A stretch of DNA of 10,095 bases, taken from Deltaproteobacteria bacterium (lineage in GTDB: Bacteria; Myxococcota; Myxococcia; Myxococcales; SZAS-1). How positions within the stretch are numbered: position 1 is the stretch's first letter; the number at the start of each line of letters is the position of its first letter. Under the pieces are notes generated by a model. That model was not told the origin of the DNA. It saw only the letters and a program-made list of their open reading frames with translations, and did no database searches. The translations under genes and the position numbers were made by a program. Location of the stretch: positions 64,001 to 74,095 of the forward strand of contig JAFEBB010000038.1 of NCBI GenBank assembly GCA_018266075.1. Direction: 5' to 3'. Shown in pieces: positions 42 through 10,095 of the stretch.

Positions 42-2135
42 TTAATGCGCAGGCACGTCGGCCGGGCCCTCGAGGGTCACGGCGAGGATGCGATCGCCTT
101 CGACCAACTGGTCGGCGACCTCCATGCCCGAGATGACGTCGGCGAAGATGGTGTAGCGGCCCTCCAGGTGCGGCTGCGGCGTGAGGGTGATGAAGAACTG
201 CGAGCCGCCGGTGTCCTTGCCGGCGAGCGCCATGCCCACCGCGCCGCGCACATAGCGCGAGCCGTCGATCTCGCAGGGGATCGAGTAGCCCGGACCGCCC
301 GCGCCGTCGCCGCGGGGATCGCCGCCTTGCACCACGAAGCCCGGCACCACGCGATGGAAGGTCAGCTGGTCGAAGTAGCCGCGCTCGGCCAGGTCGGCGA
401 AGTTCTCCGCGGTGAAGCTGCCCGCGTGCAGCCGCATGCGGATCTCGCCGCGGCTGGTAGCGATGCGGGCCACCTTCTCGCCCTGCAGCCGCTGCAGATG
501 GAAGTCGAGCGGCTCGGGCTCGCCTTGCGGCAGCGGCGCGCCGAGCGTCTTCAGCGCGTCGCGCGCGCCCGCGCGAACCGTGGCCCGCGAGTCGAGCGCG
601 AAGCGCGTGGCGGCCTTCGCATCCAGCGCCTTCAGCGACGCGAGGTGGCCCAGCACCGTGGCCACCGAGTCGTGCTGCTCGTTCACCGACGCGACGGTCA
701 GCGCGCGCACCAGATCCGGCACCGCGTCTTTCAGAGCCAGCTTGCCGGCGGCGTCCGCGGCGGAGAGCGTGACGCCCCAGTCGGCGCTGCGCAGATCGCG
801 GAGCACGCGCGTGCGCACCTCGGGCGCGTCGACCTTGGCCTCGCCGAGCGCGTCGTCCACGGCGCCCTGGGCACCCGCGCTCCACACCGCGCGCGCGAGC
901 AGCGCCTTCACCTTCACGGGCGGCTGCGCCTCCGAGTCGCCGAGGGTGCGCACCGCGAGCGCCTCACGCCACGCGGCCTGGTCGATCGTCGCGGGACACT
1001 TGTCGATGGCCGGCGTGGTCCCATCCGTGCGCGTGCGATCCGCGGCTGCGGCGAGGTAGCACCCGACGACACCGCGAACGAGCGCGTCCTCGTTGCCCTT
1101 GGCCGCCGGCAGCGACTCCGACGCCTTGCTCAGATCCGCCGCCAGAAACGCGGGCAGCTTCTCCTGCGCGATCGCGAGCACGGGCATGGCGCTCTCGCCG
1201 TGCGCGGGATCGAACCCCGCGAGCACCTCCTTCAACGCGGTCTGCACGATGGCCTTCTCGGGGCACGTCGCGTCCTTGCAGCGGCCCACGCGCTTGGCCA
1301 GCGAGCGCGCGCTCTCCACGCGCACGTCGAGCTCGGGATCCTTGAGCCGCTCCACGAGGTAGTTCGCATCTGGAACCGCCGTGCCGTCCGCGAGGCCGCG
1401 CGCGCACACCGCGCGCACGCGCGCGTCCGAGTCCTTCAAGCCGAAGACCAGCGCCGGCTGCGCCTCGGGCTTCTTGCTGCGCATCAGCGCGTAGCCCGCG
1501 GCGTAGCGAACGTCGGCATCGGCGTCGTGCGCGAGCAGCGAGCCCAGGGGATCGATCGCGCCCTTGTCCGGAGACGCCCCCTTGGTCGCGTACGCGAGCA
1601 GCCCCAGCGACTGCGCGGCCGCGCGACGCACCTTCGCCTCCGGATCGCCGAGCGCGCCGATGAGCGCGGGCGCACCCTCGGGCTGGCCGAGCTTGCCCAG
1701 CGCGTCGTCGAGGGCCACGCGCGCGTCGGGATTGGCGGCGTTCGGCAGCGCGCCCAGCACGGCCGTGGTGAGCTTGGCGAGCTGGGGCTTCTCCAGCGGC
1801 TGCCAGGAGAGCCCGAGCTGTCCCGCCGCAAAGGCCGCAGGGATCACGTCGCGCGTGCTGGCGAGCTCGGCGGCCACCGCGTCCACCGTCTCCGGACGCT
1901 GAAGTCGAGCGACCACGTCCAGCGCACGCCGTCGGAGGTGAGCGTCGCTCGAAGAGACCAGCGCCACGAGCTCCACGTCGCCGCTCTTGAGCGTGCGGTG
2001 CGATTCCATCTCGTCGAGGCGCTCCAGCGGCGACGGGCCCGGAGGCGCCAGCGCCGCCTGCGGGGACACCGGGGTGGGGGGCTCGTCCGTGACACATGCC
2101 GAGATGGCCAGGAGCAGCAGCGCCGCACGCTTCAT
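42..2135 (-). CDS. Lipoprotein with HEAT/PBS-lyase-like repeats and a C-terminal cyclophilin-type peptidyl-prolyl cis-trans isomerase domain (697 aa)
   Basis: The gene is the 3' part of the 42..3326 minus ORF. An in-frame ATG at 2133-2135 follows a perfect GGAGG 5 nt upstream (plus-strand cctcc, 2141-2145). The N-terminus MKRAALLLLAISAC is a signal peptide with a lipobox Cys. Repeated D(P/A)xxxVRxxAAxxLG motifs are typical of HEAT/PBS-lyase repeats. The C-terminal roughly 165 aa carries cyclophilin hallmarks FHRVVPGFVVQGGDP, GAVGMA and GGSQFFITL. Stop TAA at 42-44. GC3 is high throughout. Confidence 0.8.
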   Translation of the reverse strand: MKRAALLLLAISACVTDEPPTPVSPQAALAPPGPSPLERLDEMESHRTLKSGDVELVALVSSSDAHLRRRALDVVARLQRPETVDAVAAELASTRDVIPAAFAAGQLGLSWQPLEKPQLAKLTTAVLGALPNAANPDARVALDDALGKLGQPEGAPALIGALGDPEAKVRRAAAQSLGLLAYATKGASPDKGAIDPLGSLLAHDADADVRYAAGYALMRSKKPEAQPALVFGLKDSDARVRAVCARGLADGTAVPDANYLVERLKDPELDVRVESARSLAKRVGRCKDATCPEKAIVQTALKEVLAGFDPAHGESAMPVLAIAQEKLPAFLAADLSKASESLPAAKGNEDALVRGVVGCYLAAAADRTRTDGTTPAIDKCPATIDQAAWREALAVRTLGDSEAQPPVKVKALLARAVWSAGAQGAVDDALGEAKVDAPEVRTRVLRDLRSADWGVTLSAADAAGKLALKDAVPDLVRALTVASVNEQHDSVATVLGHLASLKALDAKAATRFALDSRATVRAGARDALKTLGAPLPQGEPEPLDFHLQRLQGEKVARIATSRGEIRMRLHAGSFTAENFADLAERGYFDQLTFHRVVPGFVVQGGDPRGDGAGGPGYSIPCEIDGSRYVRGAVGMALAGKDTGGSQFFITLTPQPHLEGRYTIFADVISGMEVADQLVEGDRILAVTLEGPADVPAH

Positions 2136-2140
2136 CGCGA

Positions 2141-2145
2141 CCTCC
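2141..2145 (-). promoter_or_regulatory. Shine-Dalgarno GGAGG for the HEAT-PPIase lipoprotein gene
   Basis: The minus-strand sequence reads GGAGGtcgcgATG, with 5-nt spacing to the ATG at 2135. This favours the MKRAAL start over the alternative MEVAM start at 2147. Confidence 0.5.
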
Positions 2146-2190
2146 ATGGGGCGCCCGACTCTGGCACAGCCCCGGGCCGGGGTGGAGTCG

Positions 2191-2219
2191 TTGACTGCGC
2201 TCGGACCCGCGCCAATACT
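2191..2219 (+). promoter_or_regulatory. Putative sigma-70-type promoter (-35 TTGACT, 17-bp spacer, -10 AATACT) for the zinc-ribbon membrane protein gene
   Basis: TTGACT at 2191-2196 and AATACT at 2214-2219 sit inside the 132-bp divergent intergenic region 2136-2267. Identified by eye only. Confidence 0.3.
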
Positions 2220-2267
2220 CGCGGAGACGCACTGCCGCGCGCCCGCGCGCCCAGCGAGGCGGAAACC

Positions 2268-3470
2268 TTGCGCTGCTCCAACTGTTCGTCGGTCATCTTC
2301 GACGGTACGAACGTCTGCCCGAGCTGCGGCGCGGTCAACGACCTCGACGAGCTCAACCGCCAGGGCGGCTTCTCCGGCACCGAGGCCAATCGCCAGCCGC
2401 TGCCCGATCCCACGGTGGACCGCGCCGACACGGGCGAGCACGAGGAGCCACTCGACACCCAGGAGATCTCGCAGCGCTCGGTGAAGCGCGCGGTCTCCGA
2501 GGCGACGTCCCAGCTTCCGCCGGTGCCGGAGCCGAGCGGCCCCAACCGGCGCGACGCCCTCCGCAGCAAGATGGGCGCGCCCCGGCCGGCCATGGCTCCC
2601 GCGCCCGACGACGCCACCGCCATCGGCGAGCCCACCGAGCCGCCCGCCCGCGCCACGAGCAGCCCGCGGAGCGCCCGACCGGACACGGCCGAAGACCTGC
2701 CTGCCGCCAGCGAACCGCGGCCCACGCGCGAGGCGCGCGGCCTCTCGGGCCCGAAGAAGAAGGCCGGCAAGCCCGCGCGGCCGCGCATGGAGACCGAGCC
2801 GGCCACGGAGGAGGACGTCCCGAACCGCGCGCGCAAGGTGGACCGCATGGCCGCCGAGCCGCTCCACCAGGACTCGAAGGTGGCGCCGCCGAAGTCGTCG
2901 GGCAAGTACGCCTCGGTGAAGGACGACCGCGAGGCCGAGATGACCATGGCCCGGCCGGAGCTTCAGAAGAACGAGGCCGCCGCGCCGCCGCCGGTGAACC
3001 CGGACGAGCTCGCCCAGGCCGCGATGCGCGCGTTCAAGCAGATGGGCTTCGAGGACCGCCTCGAGTCCATCTCCGCGATCGTGATGCTGATGCTGACCTT
3101 CATGCCCTGGCGCTCGGTCCGCGGCGAGAGCGACATCGGCCTGGCCACCGGCGCGGGCTTCATGAGCCTCATCTTCGCGGCGGGCGTGCTCGGGCTGGTC
3201 TATCTGCGCATCACCGGCCGCGTGCCCACGCTGCCCGCGAAGATGTTGAGCCAGGCGGAGCTCGGGCTGAGCGCGCTGCAGGTGCCGATCACGCTGATCT
3301 TCATCTTCTCCAACATCGATCGGCACCAGACGCAGTACGGCTCGCTGGCGACCTACGCGTCGATGCCGGACTTCGGCTCGATTCTCTCGATGGTGGCGAA
3401 CTTCGCGCTGTGTGCGGGCGCCGCGCTGGTGATGCAGCGCGAGAGTCGCAGCGTGTCATCGCGACGTTAG
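2268..3470 (+). CDS. Zinc-ribbon domain membrane protein (about 400 aa): N-terminal CxxC-N13-CxxC zinc ribbon, long disordered Pro/Ala/Glu/Arg-rich linker, C-terminal 3-4 helix membrane domain
   Basis: It is the 3' part of the 45..3470 plus ORF, and GC3 becomes high only from about 2230. There is no in-frame ATG or GTG. TTG at 2268 is preceded by AGGCGG 6 nt upstream and gives MRCSNCSSVIFDGTNVCPSCG; CTG at 2232 is an alternative start. Hydrophobic helices include ISAIVMLMLTFMPW, FMSLIFAAGVLGLVYLRI, LQVPITLIFIFSNI and ILSMVANFALCAGAALVM. Stop TAG at 3468-3470. Confidence 0.6.
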   Translation: MRCSNCSSVIFDGTNVCPSCGAVNDLDELNRQGGFSGTEANRQPLPDPTVDRADTGEHEEPLDTQEISQRSVKRAVSEATSQLPPVPEPSGPNRRDALRSKMGAPRPAMAPAPDDATAIGEPTEPPARATSSPRSARPDTAEDLPAASEPRPTREARGLSGPKKKAGKPARPRMETEPATEEDVPNRARKVDRMAAEPLHQDSKVAPPKSSGKYASVKDDREAEMTMARPELQKNEAAAPPPVNPDELAQAAMRAFKQMGFEDRLESISAIVMLMLTFMPWRSVRGESDIGLATGAGFMSLIFAAGVLGLVYLRITGRVPTLPAKMLSQAELGLSALQVPITLIFIFSNIDRHQTQYGSLATYASMPDFGSILSMVANFALCAGAALVMQRESRSVSSRR

Positions 3471-7562: not shown

Positions 7563-8237
7563 TCAGTACATTCGCGCGGGTGCTCTGGGATAGGTCGTCA
7601 TCGCCCGGTCGCCGCCGAAGAAGATCGACAGCTCGTGAAGCTCGACCCTGCCCCCGTCGATGTCTTCGTAGTCGTGCCACCGGTCCGGCAGCTCGCTCAG
7701 CGGAACATACGCATAGCCGCCCGCGGTCGCCGGATCCATCACGTACAGCCGCTCGGCGTCCAGACCCACCACCACGACGAAGTGACCGTCTTCCCACGCG
7801 TCACGCCACCGCACGTGAGCGGGATCGTCGGTCCACGCCTGCAGGTCCACGATCACCGGATCCCGGCGCGCGAGCGACGCTCGAATCTGCTCGATCGTCG
7901 AGTGCTCCTCCATGTTCGCCTGCAAGCCGAACTCGCGGGCCACTGCCGCGATGCGCGCTGCATGCGTTCCGTCGTGCTCGGTGCTGCCCAGCCGCTCGCC
8001 GAGGGCAATCTCGCGGCCGTCGTAGCGCTGGTAGTAGTAGAGGACACTCATCAGGGCGGCTGCACCGCAGGTGTAGTCGGTGGCCTGGCGCACGAGCGGG
8101 ACAGGAAGCAGCGCGGGTGAGGTCGCACGGGGCTCGCAGTCCGTGAAGCCGAGCGAAACGAGGACCGCCGCGCACGCGGCCGCAAGGGCCCCGTATCGAC
8201 GGGCCGGGCGAAGGGTGGCTGAGGCCGGAGTGTGCAT
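7563..8237 (-). CDS. Secreted stand-alone C39-like (papain-fold) cysteine peptidase, 224 aa
   Basis: ATG at 8235-8237 gives a signal peptide MHTPASATLRPARRYGALAAACAAVLVSLGF. The catalytic motifs are all present: QATDYTCGAAAL (Gln and Cys), GHFVVVVGLD (His) and YVMDPA (Asp). The longer 7563..8303 start variant would add a non-signal N-terminal extension. Stop TGA at 7563-7565. Confidence 0.8.
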   Translation of the reverse strand: MHTPASATLRPARRYGALAAACAAVLVSLGFTDCEPRATSPALLPVPLVRQATDYTCGAAALMSVLYYYQRYDGREIALGERLGSTEHDGTHAARIAAVAREFGLQANMEEHSTIEQIRASLARRDPVIVDLQAWTDDPAHVRWRDAWEDGHFVVVVGLDAERLYVMDPATAGGYAYVPLSELPDRWHDYEDIDGGRVELHELSIFFGGDRAMTTYPRAPARMY

Positions 8238-8296
8238 TGCCGCCTTCTCCCTCACGCCGTGGCGCTCAGCGGCGCCAGCCGACTGGCATCTTACCC

Positions 8297-8326
8297 GCTG
8301 CATTCCGCGGCGATGGTCGATGCAGC
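8297..8326. promoter_or_regulatory. Inverted repeat GCTGCAT-N16-ATGCAGC in the divergent peptidase/activator intergenic region; candidate operator or upstream activator site
   Basis: Perfect 7-bp arms at 8297-8303 and 8320-8326, seen directly in the sequence. Confidence 0.25.
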
Positions 8327-8367: not shown

Positions 8368-8385
8368 CTTGCTTGCAGCCGTACC

Positions 8386-8392
8386 CGGGGGA
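8386..8392 (+). promoter_or_regulatory. Shine-Dalgarno GGGGGAG for the activator gene
   Basis: GGGGGAG ends 3 nt before the ATG at 8396. This favours ATG 8396 over the in-frame TTG at 8369 used by the ORF track. Confidence 0.45.
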
Positions 8393-8395
8393 GCC

Positions 8396-9796
8396 ATGGC
8401 CGCGCCATTCGAACCGCAGCCCTCCACCCTCAACGAGGACCGCCCTCGCCTCCGCGGCGGCAAGGGCCTCCGGATCCGGGCCGTGGGTGCTGAAACCCAA
8501 TTCATCGCGCTCACGCGTCCGTACCTCCTGGTCGGCTCCTCTGACGCGTGTGGCCTCCGCCTTCACGACAGGTTTGTCTCCCGCCGGCACCTCGAGATCT
8601 CCGTCTCATCCGAGGGCGTGGCGGTGAAGCTCGTCAGCATGACGAACGGGATGCTCCTCCTCGCCGAGGGAGGCATTTCCACGGGCTCCCACGTCACGGA
8701 GGTGAGCTTCTGGGGTGTGGGGAGCGGGATCCGCATCGGCAAGACGGTGCTCTGGCTCGAGTACGAGCCTGAGGAGTCCGAGCGCCGCCGCGACCTCTTT
8801 GGTCTCATCGGCGATGACGCGGCGATCGACCGCGTGCGCCAGGACATCGTCACCTGGAGCGCCGACAGGTTCCGGGTGCTCATCCACGGCGAGAGCGGTT
8901 CGGGCAAGGAGCTGGTGGCGCGCGGGCTCCACGACCGGTCGCCGCGACACGAGAACCATTTCATCGCCCGAAATTGCGCCACCCTCGTCGGCTCCATGCT
9001 CGAGGACGACCTCTTTGGGCACGTGAAGAACGCCTTCACCGGCGCGGTCCGCGAGCGCAAAGGAGCCTTTGAGCTGGCCGACCGGTGCACCCTCTTCCTC
9101 GACGAGATCGGCGAGCTGCCACCGGAGACGCAGGTCAAGCTGCTCCGCGTGCTGGAGACCGGCGAGGTCTTCCCGGTGGGCTCGAGCACGCCCATCAAGG
9201 TCGACGTCCGCCTCATCTGCGCGTCGCACCGCGACCTGCGCAAGATGGTGAAGGAGGGGAAGTTCCGCGAGGACCTCTACCACCGCATCGCGGACGTGAC
9301 GATCGAGGTCCCGCCGCTGCGCGAGCGCCCCGGCGACATCCCGCTGCTGGTGCGCCACTACACCTCGATGCAGCCCAATGGCGGAGGCGTGGGCTGGACC
9401 CCGCGGGCGATGGAGATGATGCAGGAGCACCCGTTCACCGGGAACGTGCGCGAGCTCATCAGCGCGGTGAAGTGCGCCGTGCAGCTCGCCACGGGCGGCT
9501 TCGTGGAGCCGGAGCACCTCCGGCGGATCCTGAAGGACATGGCGACGGACGAGAGCTCGAACGACACCGTCGGCGTCCGAGCCAAGCCGTTGAAGGCGGT
9601 CATCCGCGAAACCATCGTCAAGAGCATCCGGCGGAATGGCGGCAACAAGAACGCCGCCGCGCGCGAGCTCAAGACCAGCCGCAGCGTCCTCACGCCGATT
9701 GACCCCGACCATGAGCTCGAGGACAGCGAGTCGAGCGAGAAGCGCCCGAAGTCGAGCGACCAGACGCGCGACCCGAGCAAGAAGCGCCGTCGGTAG
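8396..9796 (+). CDS. Sigma-54-dependent transcriptional activator (bacterial enhancer-binding protein) with an N-terminal FHA domain, 466 aa
   Basis: The FHA motifs are GSSDACGLRLHDRFVSRRHLEI. The sigma-54 AAA+ domain shows Walker A GESGSGKE, a GAFTGA-like loop FGHVKNAFTGA, Walker B CTLFLDEIGEL and an arginine finger region NVRELISAV. A C-terminal Fis-type HTH reads RRNGGNKNAAARELKTSRSVL, followed by a basic tail. Stop TAG at 9794-9796. Confidence 0.9.
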   Translation: MAAPFEPQPSTLNEDRPRLRGGKGLRIRAVGAETQFIALTRPYLLVGSSDACGLRLHDRFVSRRHLEISVSSEGVAVKLVSMTNGMLLLAEGGISTGSHVTEVSFWGVGSGIRIGKTVLWLEYEPEESERRRDLFGLIGDDAAIDRVRQDIVTWSADRFRVLIHGESGSGKELVARGLHDRSPRHENHFIARNCATLVGSMLEDDLFGHVKNAFTGAVRERKGAFELADRCTLFLDEIGELPPETQVKLLRVLETGEVFPVGSSTPIKVDVRLICASHRDLRKMVKEGKFREDLYHRIADVTIEVPPLRERPGDIPLLVRHYTSMQPNGGGVGWTPRAMEMMQEHPFTGNVRELISAVKCAVQLATGGFVEPEHLRRILKDMATDESSNDTVGVRAKPLKAVIRETIVKSIRRNGGNKNAAARELKTSRSVLTPIDPDHELEDSESSEKRPKSSDQTRDPSKKRRR

Positions 9797-9877
9797 CCGG
9801 AAGGCGTCTCGCGCTTCGTTCCCGAGAGCCAAAGCCGTAGCTCACAACGCCTGGCCCGGCGTCCGAAGAAACGCTCC

Positions 9878-10095
9878 GTGATCTTCGGGGGTGCGTGGCT
9901 CGCTATCAAAGGCCCGCGGCTCATCGCGAAGAGCTCAATCTCGATCGAACAGAACCCGATCTTGCTCACCCAGGACGGGTTCCCGGGCCCGAAGAACCGG
10001 CTCGTCGGCCTGATAGACCGGCTCCTCGGCCCGATGAACAGGCTCCTCGGCCCGATGAACAGGCTCGTCGGCCCGATGAACCGGCTCGTCGGCCC
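9878..10095 (+). CDS. Partial CDS (3' end beyond window): hypothetical protein with tandem heptapeptide GP(M/K)NRL(V/L) repeats
   Basis: The reading frame is the same as the activator's and stays open from its TAG to the window end, with high GC3. The other two frames have a stop in every repeat unit (frame 0) or low GC3 (frame 1, PDEQAPR). The start is uncertain: GTG at 9878 gives MIFGGAWLAIKGPRL, and CTG at 9851 and TTG at 9962 are alternatives. Unit-to-unit substitutions are synonymous (agg to cgg, Arg) or conservative (ctc to gtc, Leu/Val) in this frame. Confidence 0.45.
   Translation, partial: MIFGGAWLAIKGPRLIAKSSISIEQNPILLTQDGFPGPKNRLVGLIDRLLGPMNRLLGPMNRLVGPMNRLVG
9986..10095 (+). repeat. 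21-bp tandem direct repeat array, at least 5 units with consensus cccgatgaacaggctcgtcgg, truncated by the window edge
   Basis: The units are cccgaagaaccggctcgtcgg, cctgatagaccggctcctcgg, cccgatgaacaggctcctcgg, cccgatgaacaggctcgtcgg and cccgatgaaccggctcgtcgg, followed by ccc at the edge. There are no spacers, so this is not a CRISPR array. Confidence 0.85.

What the first reader, a model, noticed from the sequence alone, without database searches (positions are those of the whole stretch)
9797..10095. Heptad-repeat protein gene encoded by a 21-bp tandem array, directly downstream of an FHA sigma-54 activator
A perfect 21-bp periodicity starts near 9986 and runs off the window. Only one frame is both stop-free and high in GC3, and it encodes GPKNRLV-GLIDRLL-GPMNRLL-GPMNRLV-GPMNRLV. 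Differences between units are synonymous (AGG/CGG, Arg) or conservative (CTC/GTC, Leu/Val), which argues for purifying selection on a protein repeat rather than a non-coding iteron. A 7-residue Gly-Pro-x-Asn-Arg-Leu-hydrophobic repeat is not a family I recognise; it is neither collagen-like, pentapeptide, nor a classic coiled-coil heptad. The gene lies on the same strand 80 bp after the enhancer-binding protein and in the same frame, so it may be co-transcribed with it or be its regulatory target. Tandem arrays like this are also hot spots for slipped-strand copy-number variation.
Basis: seen in the sequence. Interest (0 to 1): 0.65.

Follow-up and report, generated by a model that had tools for sequence, protein, structure and literature searches.

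The report
Orphan heptad-repeat gene at contig end
A real 21-bp tandem repeat at the very end of a metagenome contig most likely encodes the start of an uncharacterised seven-residue-repeat protein seen in only one other place, but its function, full length and any link to the neighbouring regulator remain unknown.

Summary
The 21-bp array (9986-10095; 5.2 copies, no indels) is real. It runs off the window because the window end is the end of a 74,095-bp MAG contig, so it cannot be extended. Two minus-strand frames are also open through the array, one with identical GC3. The within-array substitution argument does not discriminate between frames. The support comes from three results. Codon log-odds favour the + frame in the array and, independently, in the 108 non-repetitive bp before it (16.8 bits; 0 of 5000 random sequences reach this). 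Lag-21 periodicity decays exactly to the annotated GTG start at 9878. One metagenomic locus (L081) carries a complete, internal ~13-copy array encoding the same heptad (LVGPKNR), where only this frame is stop-free and variation peaks at third codon positions. No σ54 promoter lies in 9797-10095, and L081 shares no synteny, so the link to the activator is unsupported. The heptad (G-P-x-N-x-L-V) belongs to no curated family. Its resemblance to the grass antifreeze β-roll (N-x-V-x-G) is motif-level only and failed specificity controls. Verdict: probably a genuine orphan repeat protein of unknown function, of modest interest.

The parts
9986..10095 (+). 21-bp tandem array, 5.2 units (consensus GGC CCG ATG AAC CGG CTC GTC = G-P-M-N-R-L-V), cut off by the contig end
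   Evidence: TRF. Unit listing and translations. Contig end.
9878..10095 (+). Partial ORF (NCBI JST54_22310, MBS2030654.1) with GTG start. The whole visible product is heptads that become more degenerate towards the N-terminus.
   Evidence: P0001 is identical to this translation. Codon log-odds are +32.5 bits over 72 codons, the best of six frames. The lag-21 signal ramps from 0.43 at 9875 to 0.89 at 10001.
9878..9985 (+). N-terminal 36 codons of degenerate heptads (IFGGAWL AIKGPRL IAKSSIS IEQNPIL LTQDGFP); this stretch gives coding evidence independent of the array
   Evidence: 16.8 bits in the + frame. The null (best of 6 frames, Markov-1) is -7.7 +/- 5.5, with 0 of 5000 reaching it. 31% of true-gene pieces score lower. 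GC1/2/3 = 0.53/0.44/0.86.
9797..9877 (.). 81-bp non-coding spacer between the activator stop and the ORF start; no recognisable promoter or terminator
   Evidence: Log-odds are negative in all six frames (about -0.3 bits/codon, like the other intergenic pieces). No σ70, terminator or σ54 matches. Lag-21 at background.
8396..9796 (+). Neighbouring FHA / σ54-interaction AAA+ activator gene. Context only; no functional link to the array was shown.
   Evidence: Pfam Sigma54_activat 205.9 bits, FHA 22.5 bits (cut-off 20.7). NCBI calls a shorter 392-aa version.

Best explanation
The array is the in-frame repeat region of a genuine but orphan + strand protein-coding gene. The gene starts at GTG 9878 and is truncated by the contig end. 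Its product is built entirely of seven-residue repeats, G-[P/L]-x-N-x-L-[V/L/I]. Gly, Asn and Leu are the conserved positions and positions 3 and 5 vary; the repeats are sharpest in the youngest units and decay towards the N-terminus. Shown: the repeat itself, its coding-like statistics, and a second locus encoding the same heptad. Inferred: the array grows and shrinks in 21-bp (or 42-bp) steps by slippage or unequal recombination, which keeps the frame. Inferred: the last units are so alike that the short-read assembler could not pass them, which is why the contig ends there. Inferred: the conserved Gly/Asn/Leu pattern with Gly-Pro every seven residues suggests an elongated, non-coiled-coil repeat structure, possibly a β-solenoid with an Asn ladder. 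The function is unknown. Nothing ties the gene to the adjacent σ54 activator.
For: (1) In the window, codon log-odds trained on its confident genes are best in the + frame: array +15.7 bits and the non-repetitive 9878-9985 +16.7 bits. The antisense partner frame scores -1.8 and +4.9, and the ADEPVHR frame -7.0 and -8.4. The same test picks the true frame in 31 of 32 pieces of known genes. Against a random null, 0 of 5000 sequences reach 16.7 bits. (2) The spacer 9797-9877 looks non-coding, and lag-21 periodicity begins at about 9875, matching the GTG at 9878. (3) The GPTSRFI frame would have to overlap the activator gene antisense by about 440 nt. (4) L081 (metagenome contig Ga0335073_10010160) holds a complete, internal 12.9-copy 21/42-bp array encoding LVGPKNH/LVGLKNY/LVGPKNR. 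BLASTP against P0001 gives 64% identity over 36 aa. Only this frame is stop-free across the array plus 96 further codons; the other five frames carry 1-9 stops within the array. (5) In L081, column entropy peaks at codon position 3 of this frame (0.82 versus 0.47 and 0.36). Leu, Val, Gly, Pro and Lys codons wobble synonymously, Leu1 and Asn6 are invariant in 13 of 13 units, and Gly3 in 11 of 13. (6) The two loci encode the same residues with different codons: Leu CTC versus TTG/TTA, Lys AAG versus AAA, Arg CGG/AGG versus CGC. (7) The window unit's dyad symmetry is not conserved in L081, so the two loci share the peptide and not a DNA structure.
Against: Apart from the window's own annotation there is no relative among 5.8 billion proteins. 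The index-free search gives only heterogeneous heptad look-alikes, and all ten that were looked up are unnamed single-sequence or two-member clusters, nine of them from metagenome contigs or raw reads. L081's ORF has poor codon statistics for its genome: -0.3 to -0.6 bits/codon and GC3 0.78-0.84, against +0.5 to +1.0 and 0.98 in its confident genes. L081 has no unambiguous start, and heptad-like units upstream are interrupted by two in-frame TGA codons. The third-position entropy excess is only marginally significant by my rough estimate (about p = 0.05-0.15). Within the window the array is five copies of the same seven codons, so it contributes little independent coding evidence. The window ORF has no Shine-Dalgarno sequence, although RF3 in the same window lacks one too. 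AlphaFold on the fragment is low-confidence (pLDDT 64, pTM 0.25).
Confidence: 0.6

Rival explanations
1. The array is a non-coding minisatellite. Its unit happens to lack stops and to end each triplet in G or C, and the NCBI gene call is a spurious ORF over it.
For: No homologues. Many phmmer look-alikes are evidently translated 21-bp minisatellites, and all ten that were looked up sit in clusters of one or two sequences. In a 69% GC genome a 7-triplet unit with all third positions G/C is not rare (about 0.07 per frame, my own estimate). L081's array sits in about 1.5 kb with no good coding signal and has in-frame stops among the upstream units.
Against: The non-repetitive 108 bp upstream has a strong + frame codon signal (0 of 5000 under the null). 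The periodicity ends at the start codon. In L081 only this frame stays open, with a third-position wobble pattern and invariant Gly/Asn/Leu. The same amino acids are encoded by different codons in the two loci.
Confidence: 0.2
2. The array is a cluster of dyad-symmetric protein-binding sites spaced two helical turns apart. For example, it could be an upstream activating region for the adjacent σ54 activator, driving a promoter beyond the contig end.
For: The unit is dyad-symmetric (GAYGARCC|GGYTCRTC; 16 of 21 positions against its own reverse complement, p about 0.02-0.04). It lies directly downstream of an enhancer-binding-protein gene. Myxobacterial activators such as Nla28 bind clusters of 2-5 tandem 8-bp half-sites with spacers of 25 bp or less, and many of their σ54 target promoters are intragenic (PMC9765219).
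Against: The dyad symmetry is absent from the related L081 array (12 of 21, p = 0.5). No activator gene was identified on the L081 locus; the ORFs with a Pfam match there are an FHA-GAF-cyclase and TruD. Differences between window units break the dyad pairs instead of compensating for them (my own tabulation). No σ54 promoter lies within the window. The unit matches the Nla28 half-site at only 5 of 8 positions (my own comparison). Coding-like statistics argue for translation.
Confidence: 0.08
3. The array encodes the C-terminal tail of a convergent minus-strand gene lying beyond the contig end. The frame would be (A-D/E-E-P-V-H-R)n, ending at a stop near 9940, or alternatively the GPTSRFI frame.
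For: Both minus frames are open through the array. In the ADEPVHR frame most unit differences are third-position and either synonymous or Asp/Glu. The chance hit L082 shows a weakly phasin-like gene (Phasin_2 19.7 bits, below the 24.9 cut-off) whose C-terminus, read on the opposite strand, resembles this frame.
Against: Codon log-odds are negative for ADEPVHR (-7.0 and -8.4 bits) and near zero for GPTSRFI. ADEPVHR needs the rare codons GTT and CAT. There are no homologues. Both equivalent frames contain stops inside L081's array. GPTSRFI would overlap the activator by about 440 nt. The codon-like signal in 9878-9937 lies outside the ADEPVHR ORF.
Confidence: 0.07
4. The array is an assembly artefact, such as a de Bruijn graph loop at a contig tip or a collapsed repeat, and not genuine sequence.
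For: It sits at the very end of the contig, and the period of 21 equals a common minimum k-mer size (my own knowledge).
Against: The five units all differ from one another, whereas a graph loop would give identical copies. The periodicity decays smoothly into unique sequence. A related array is assembled internally in an independent metagenome (L081). Collapse of the copy number beyond the contig end is nevertheless likely.
Confidence: 0.05

Closest known systems
Grass ice-recrystallisation-inhibition / antifreeze β-roll (LpAFP/LpIBP, PDB 3ULT; Pfam PF21300 LbR_Ice_bind)
   Same: Both are heptad-scale repeats with the N-x-[V/L]-x-G motif. LpAFP uses NXVXG/NXVXXG with 14-15 residues per turn and Asn rows in the core (PMC5744647). 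The window has N-R-L-V-G(-P-M) and L081 has N-H-L-V-G(-P-K). L081 has a stronger 42-bp (14-aa) super-period (84% versus 70% matches). 3ULT is the only PDB sequence hit by the L081 ORF, and it aligns in register.
   Different: Scores are below threshold: L081 scores 28.1 bits against a cut-off of 30, and P0001 gets no hit. 3ULT is hit only at E = 0.057. An in-register profile of the heptads finds nothing in the PDB. PF21300 also scores 23-34 bits on unrelated heptad sequences, including coiled-coil-like ones. The repeats here carry Pro at position 2 and charged or large residues where LpAFP has Ser/Thr/Asn. No signal peptide is evident. The host is bacterial, not plant.
In-frame coding minisatellites (VNTRs) in bacterial repeat-protein genes
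   Same: The unit length is a multiple of three. The units are near-identical with a gradient of decay, the frame is preserved, and the assembly breaks at the array. The inferred mechanism is copy-number change by slippage or unequal recombination.
   Different: No copy-number polymorphism could be examined. No signal peptide, anchor or known domain is attached. The protein has no characterised relatives.
Tandem half-site clusters bound by myxobacterial σ54 enhancer-binding proteins (e.g. Nla28, CT[C/G]CG[C/G]AG)
   Same: The array consists of tandem short motifs with spacing of 25 bp or less next to an enhancer-binding-protein gene, and intragenic σ54 promoters are known (PMC9765219).
   Different: Nla28-type clusters have 2-5 imperfect sites with variable spacing, not a strict 21-bp array. 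The window unit does not match that half-site. No σ54 promoter was found. The conserved feature between the two loci is the peptide, not the DNA.
Bacterial N-terminal E-R-N-A-L-V-G / Q-V-N-x-L-T-G heptad proteins with a sulfotransferase domain (P0016, P0022)
   Same: They share the N-x-L-x-G heptad signature and are among the statistically better hits of the index-free search.
   Different: They lack Pro, hit dozens of coiled-coil families and carry a C-terminal sulfotransferase domain. Nothing outside the periodic pattern is similar.

Membership tests
Pfam PF21300 LbR_Ice_bind (grass antifreeze β-roll) | Whole-protein score at or above the curated gathering cut-off (30 bits) | tested here: not met
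   P0001 has no hit even at E <= 10. The L081 ORF scores 28.1 bits, E = 2e-6. The control shows low specificity: P0016 34.2, P0022 25.1 and P0025 23.6 bits.
Pfam PF21300 LbR_Ice_bind (grass antifreeze β-roll) | Repeated N-x-V-x-G / N-x-V-x-x-G motif with 14-15 residues per coil | tested here: inconclusive
   N-x-L-x-G recurs every 7 residues in both loci. A 14-residue super-period is seen only in L081. Leu replaces Val. The motif definition comes from PMC5744647.
Pfam PF21300 LbR_Ice_bind (grass antifreeze β-roll) | β-roll fold | tested here: inconclusive
   AlphaFold2 on P0001 alone gives pLDDT 64 and pTM 0.25, with one helix over residues 38-71, which is unreliable. A profile search of the PDB found nothing.
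α-helical coiled-coil heptad repeat | Hydrophobic a/d positions in a helix-compatible sequence | tested here: not met
   Gly-Pro occurs in almost every heptad of the window, and Gly-[Pro/Leu] in L081. In L081 the residue three positions after Val is Lys or Asn. The low-confidence AF2 helix is not enough to overturn this.
Pentapeptide, hexapeptide (LβH) and collagen-like repeats | Period of 5, 6 or 3 residues | tested here: not met
   The period is strictly 21 bp (7 residues) with no indels. There are no Pfam hits to these families.
σ54-dependent target gene of the adjacent activator | A -24/-12 promoter (TGGCAC-N5-TTGCW) upstream of the gene | tested here: not met
   No site with 3 or fewer mismatches lies in 9797-10095. 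The window as a whole has fewer matches (19) than shuffled sequence (32.6).
σ54-dependent target gene of the adjacent activator | Conserved linkage of activator and target in related genomes | tested here: not met
   The activator has no orthologues (best non-self hit 46% identity over 46% of the length). The only related heptad locus, L081, is flanked by TruD and an FHA-GAF-cyclase, not by an activator.
Iteron or operator array (non-coding protein-binding repeats) | DNA motif or dyad conserved between related arrays, in non-coding sequence | tested here: not met
   Dyad symmetry is 16 of 21 in the window but 12 of 21 (p = 0.5) in L081. Conservation follows codons. No similar DNA exists in the plasmid or phage collections.
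In-frame coding minisatellite (VNTR) within an ORF | Unit length a multiple of 3 and reading frame open across the array | tested here: met
   The 21-bp unit shows 0 stops in the + frame over all visible units in the window. There are also 0 stops over the complete array in L081.
In-frame coding minisatellite (VNTR) within an ORF | Copy-number variation between strains | not testable with these tools
   No second copy of this locus exists in any searched collection, and the contig ends inside the array.

The most novel reading that the evidence does not exclude
The window and L081 are the first two sightings of an undescribed bacterial family of G-P-x-N-x-L-V heptad proteins. These would fold into an Asn-ladder β-solenoid analogous to the grass ice-binding β-roll. 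The repeat number would vary rapidly, giving soil Myxococcota-like bacteria a tunable surface- or ice-/mineral-binding protein.
Probability: 0.12. Interest if true: 0.55.

Novelty: new variant of a known kind. Interest (0 to 1): 0.3.

Why it matters
If the gene is translated, it adds a heptad repeat type that no curated family covers. It would also give a bacterial sequence analogue of the N-x-V-x-G β-roll motif to test structurally. In practice the finding shows how in-frame minisatellites break metagenome assemblies, leaving partial 'hypothetical protein' calls at contig ends. It also shows that in high-GC DNA a repeat can look coding on both strands, so open frames and GC3 alone cannot assign the frame. 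The finding does not bear on σ54 regulation.

Tried and rejected
(1) Extending the contig failed. Exact-protein look-ups for RF3, three versions of the activator and P0001 all returned nothing, and the window end is the contig end.

(2) The repeat DNA, exact or codon-degenerate, has 0 hits in species-representative genomes, JGI metagenomes and viral contigs. blastn of 9797-10095 against plasmids and phages found no match.

(3) Orthologous neighbourhoods via the activator gave only distant AAA+ paralogues at 35-50% identity.

(4) The ADEPVHR frame has no homologues.

(5) Rfam shows nothing near threshold. The array's hairpin potential (z = -2.6 and -4.4) is explained by its dyad symmetry, which L081 does not share.

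(6) L082 was rejected as a chance hit. It is not a tandem repeat, comes from lower-GC DNA, and is antisense to a complete ORF that is only weakly phasin-like (Phasin_2 19.7 bits, cut-off 24.9).

(7) The 42 phmmer look-alikes were rejected as a family. Their heptads are heterogeneous and they have no shared flanks. Several look eukaryotic by sequence alone, and all ten that were looked up are in unnamed clusters of one or two sequences.

(8) Homology to the grass β-roll was rejected after the specificity control and the null profile search.

(9) A former fusion with the activator (same frame, weak 21-bp periodicity in its tail) was rejected. Lag-21 is at background from 9749 to 9874, and the spacer scores as non-coding.

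(10) The in-register degenerate copy at 9860 (14 of 21) is not significant against background, which gives 3.6 sites with at least 12 of 21 per 366 nt.

No fold search was run, because the only model is low-confidence.

Full report
OBSERVATION. Tandem Repeats Finder confirms a 21-bp array at 9986-10095: 5.2 copies, 87% matches, no indels, score 164. It is by far the strongest repeat in the window. The activator ORF ends at 9796, the first in-frame start codon is GTG 9878, and both are in the same frame.

The array runs off the window because the window end is the contig end. The only database match to the + frame peptide is NCBI MBS2030654.1, 'MAG: hypothetical protein JST54_22310, partial [Deltaproteobacteria bacterium]'. 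It is 73 aa on a 74,095-bp contig, starts at 9878, and ends with a residue derived from the final incomplete codon. The figures also fit: 74,095 - 64,000 = 10,095. The contig therefore cannot be extended, and exact-protein look-ups for neighbouring genes found no other copy.

The claim that only one frame is stop-free with high GC3 is wrong. The minus frame beginning at 10095 (GPTSRFI...) uses the same third positions, so its GC3 is identical (0.97), and it is open to 9358. The minus frame from 10093 (ADEPVHR...) is open through the array and stops near 9940.

The cause is that the unit is dyad-symmetric. Shifted by 5 nt, its reverse complement matches the consensus at 16 of 21 positions (GAYGARCC|GGYTCRTC; p about 0.02-0.04 under four nulls).

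The purifying-selection argument also fails to discriminate. Of the 8 unit-to-consensus differences, five fall on + frame codon position 1, two on position 2 and one on position 3. In the ADEPVHR frame the same changes are Pro-synonymous, Val-synonymous or Asp/Glu (tabulated).

WHICH FRAME, IF ANY. I trained codon log-odds on three confident window genes. The + frame scores +15.7 bits over the array and +16.7 bits over the non-repetitive 108 bp before it. The antisense partner scores -1.8 and +4.9, and ADEPVHR scores -7.0 and -8.4. The 81-bp spacer is negative in all six frames. The same test recovers the true frame in 31 of 32 pieces of the training genes. Against a Markov-1 null, taking the best of six frames, the pre-array score is reached in 0 of 5000 trials (null -7.7 +/- 5.5). 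It lies inside the leave-one-out range of real gene pieces, and real intergenic pieces score about -0.3 bits per codon. Lag-21 self-similarity rises smoothly from 0.43 at 9875-9937 to 0.89 at 10001-10063. It is at background across 9749-9874. So the periodic tract begins where the annotated ORF begins, and it does not run through the activator's stop codon. The lack of a Shine-Dalgarno sequence is uninformative, because the RF3 gene also lacks one.

RELATIVES. The word-indexed search of 5.8 billion proteins returned only the window's own product and nothing for ADEPVHR. The index-free search of 1.84 billion representatives returned 42 other proteins. They are a heterogeneous set of heptad low-complexity sequences: some that look eukaryotic by sequence alone, a tail-fibre-like giant, WD40 and sulfotransferase proteins, and many apparent minisatellite translations. 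They have no common flanks. All ten that I looked up are unnamed, in clusters of one or two sequences, nine of them from metagenome contigs or raw reads.

The activator has no orthologue; the best non-self hit is 46% identical over 46% of its length. Synteny could therefore not be tested that way. Codon-degenerate DNA patterns found nothing in genomes, metagenomes or viral contigs, and blastn found nothing in plasmids or phages.

THE INFORMATIVE LOCUS. A protein-guided scan of JGI metagenomes found L081 (Ga0335073_10010160; 13.2 kb; 70.5% GC). It carries an internal, complete array of 12.9 units with period 21, and more strongly period 42 (84% versus 70% matches). The unit TTGGTTGGCCCGAAGAACCAC shares the 13-nt core GGCCCGAAGAACC with the window's first unit. 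LVGPKNR, which is the window's heptad. BLASTP gives 64% identity over 36 residues.

Only this frame is stop-free across the array and the next 96 codons. The other five frames carry 1-9 stops within the array, including both minus-strand equivalents. Column entropy across the 13 units peaks at third codon positions of this frame (0.82 versus 0.47 and 0.36). There is synonymous wobble in Leu (TTG/TTA), Val (GTT/GTC), Gly (GGG/GGC/GGA), Pro and Lys. Leu1 and Asn6 are invariant in 13 of 13 units and Gly3 in 11 of 13. The non-synonymous changes concentrate at three heptad positions.

Between the two loci the same residues are written with different codons (Leu CTC versus TTG/TTA). This fits conservation of the peptide and not of a DNA motif. 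The window's dyad symmetry is not shared by L081 (12 of 21, p = 0.5).

CAVEATS FROM L081. Its confident genes have GC3 0.98 and score +0.5 to +1.0 bits per codon. The heptad ORF scores -0.3 to -0.6 with GC3 0.78-0.84. Its 'start' is an arbitrary TTG. Heptad-like units continue upstream through two in-frame TGA codons. The array lies in about 1.5 kb without a good coding signal. L081 has TruD and an FHA-GAF-cyclase nearby and no σ54 activator. The second locus, L082, is a chance hit.

LINK TO THE ACTIVATOR. No TGGCAC-N5-TTGCW site with 3 or fewer mismatches lies in 9797-10095, and the window overall has fewer such sites than shuffled sequence. There is no σ70-like promoter or intrinsic terminator and no conserved linkage. 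An enhancer-array reading has precedent: Nla28 binds clusters of tandem 8-bp half-sites, and intragenic σ54 promoters exist (PMC9765219). However, the evidence above favours a conserved peptide.

WHAT KIND OF PROTEIN. No Pfam, NCBIfam or PHROGs family is matched by the window product. The L081 ORF scores 28.1 bits (cut-off 30) against PF21300, the grass antifreeze β-roll. Its only PDB hit is 3ULT (E = 0.057), aligned in register as G-x-x-N-x-[V/L]-x. LpAFP is built of NXVXG/NXVXXG motifs with 14-15 residues per turn and Asn rows in the core (PMC5744647). The window's N-R-L-V-G and L081's 14-residue super-period fit this pattern.

The controls are negative, though. PF21300 scores 23-34 bits on unrelated heptad proteins, including one that also hits dozens of coiled-coil families. 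An in-register profile of the heptads finds nothing in the PDB. P0001 alone hits nothing. AlphaFold2 on the 73-residue fragment is low-confidence (pLDDT 64, pTM 0.25) and draws a helix through Gly-Pro heptads. The β-solenoid idea is therefore an inference from the conserved Gly/Asn/Leu pattern and is not a result.

VERDICT. The most likely explanation (about 0.6) is a genuine, orphan, partial + strand gene made of an in-frame 21-bp minisatellite encoding G-P-x-N-x-L-V heptads, cut by an assembly break. The rivals are a non-coding minisatellite (0.2), a protein-binding array (0.08), minus-strand coding (0.07) and an assembly artefact (0.05). It is a new variant of a known kind, namely repeat proteins encoded by coding minisatellites. 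Only two loci are known and the function is unknown. Interest is modest.

Noticed in passing
window 8369-9796 (+): NCBI's call of the σ54 activator (P0044, 392 aa, GTG 8618) cuts off the FHA domain. The longer ORF from ATG 8396 has GGGGGAG just upstream and contains FHA (PF00498, 22.5 bits versus cut-off 20.7). The 'FHA' label therefore holds only with the longer start.
   Followed up: partly
window 8396-9796 (+): The activator has no orthologue in 5.8 billion proteins (best non-self hit 46% identity over 46% of its length). It shows no PF02954 HTH_8 hit at E <= 0.001, although its C-terminus reads like a Fis-type HTH (GGNKNAAARELKTSRSVL). This is followed by an acidic/basic low-complexity tail with weak 21-bp periodicity (9727-9788).
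   Followed up: partly
window 7563-8303 (-): The C39-like peptidase gene has atypical codon usage. Its leave-one-out log-odds mean is -0.7 bits per 36 codons, against 16.7 for the activator and 26.6 for RF3.
   Followed up: no
window 42-3470, both strands: Two ORFs of more than 1,000 aa overlap on opposite strands. Only the minus one (HEAT repeats plus cyclophilin) has domain support. The plus one is a typical high-GC shadow ORF.
   Followed up: partly
L081 4618-4686 and 9301-9413: Two (GGTCGC)n hexamer arrays, of 11 and 19 copies, lie on the same contig as the heptad array.
   Followed up: no
L081 4226-5800: About 1.5 kb has no good coding signal, in a genome whose genes have GC3 0.98. It is filled with degenerate 21-bp units, and its GC content is well below the contig average. 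The heptad ORF uses TTG/TTA for all 13 Leu codons.
   Followed up: partly
P0016, P0022 (proteins from the index-free search): These are bacterial sulfotransferase-domain proteins with N-terminal ERNALVG/QVNxLTG heptad arrays. P0016 passes the PF21300 (grass β-roll) cut-off (34.2 bits versus 30) while also matching dozens of coiled-coil families. This suggests the Pfam model is not specific.
   Followed up: partly
window 9986-10095, both strands: The array can fold back on itself into a long imperfect hairpin (RNA z = -2.6 on the + strand and -4.4 on the - strand). This follows from the unit's dyad symmetry and may contribute to assembly or sequencing difficulty.
   Followed up: yes
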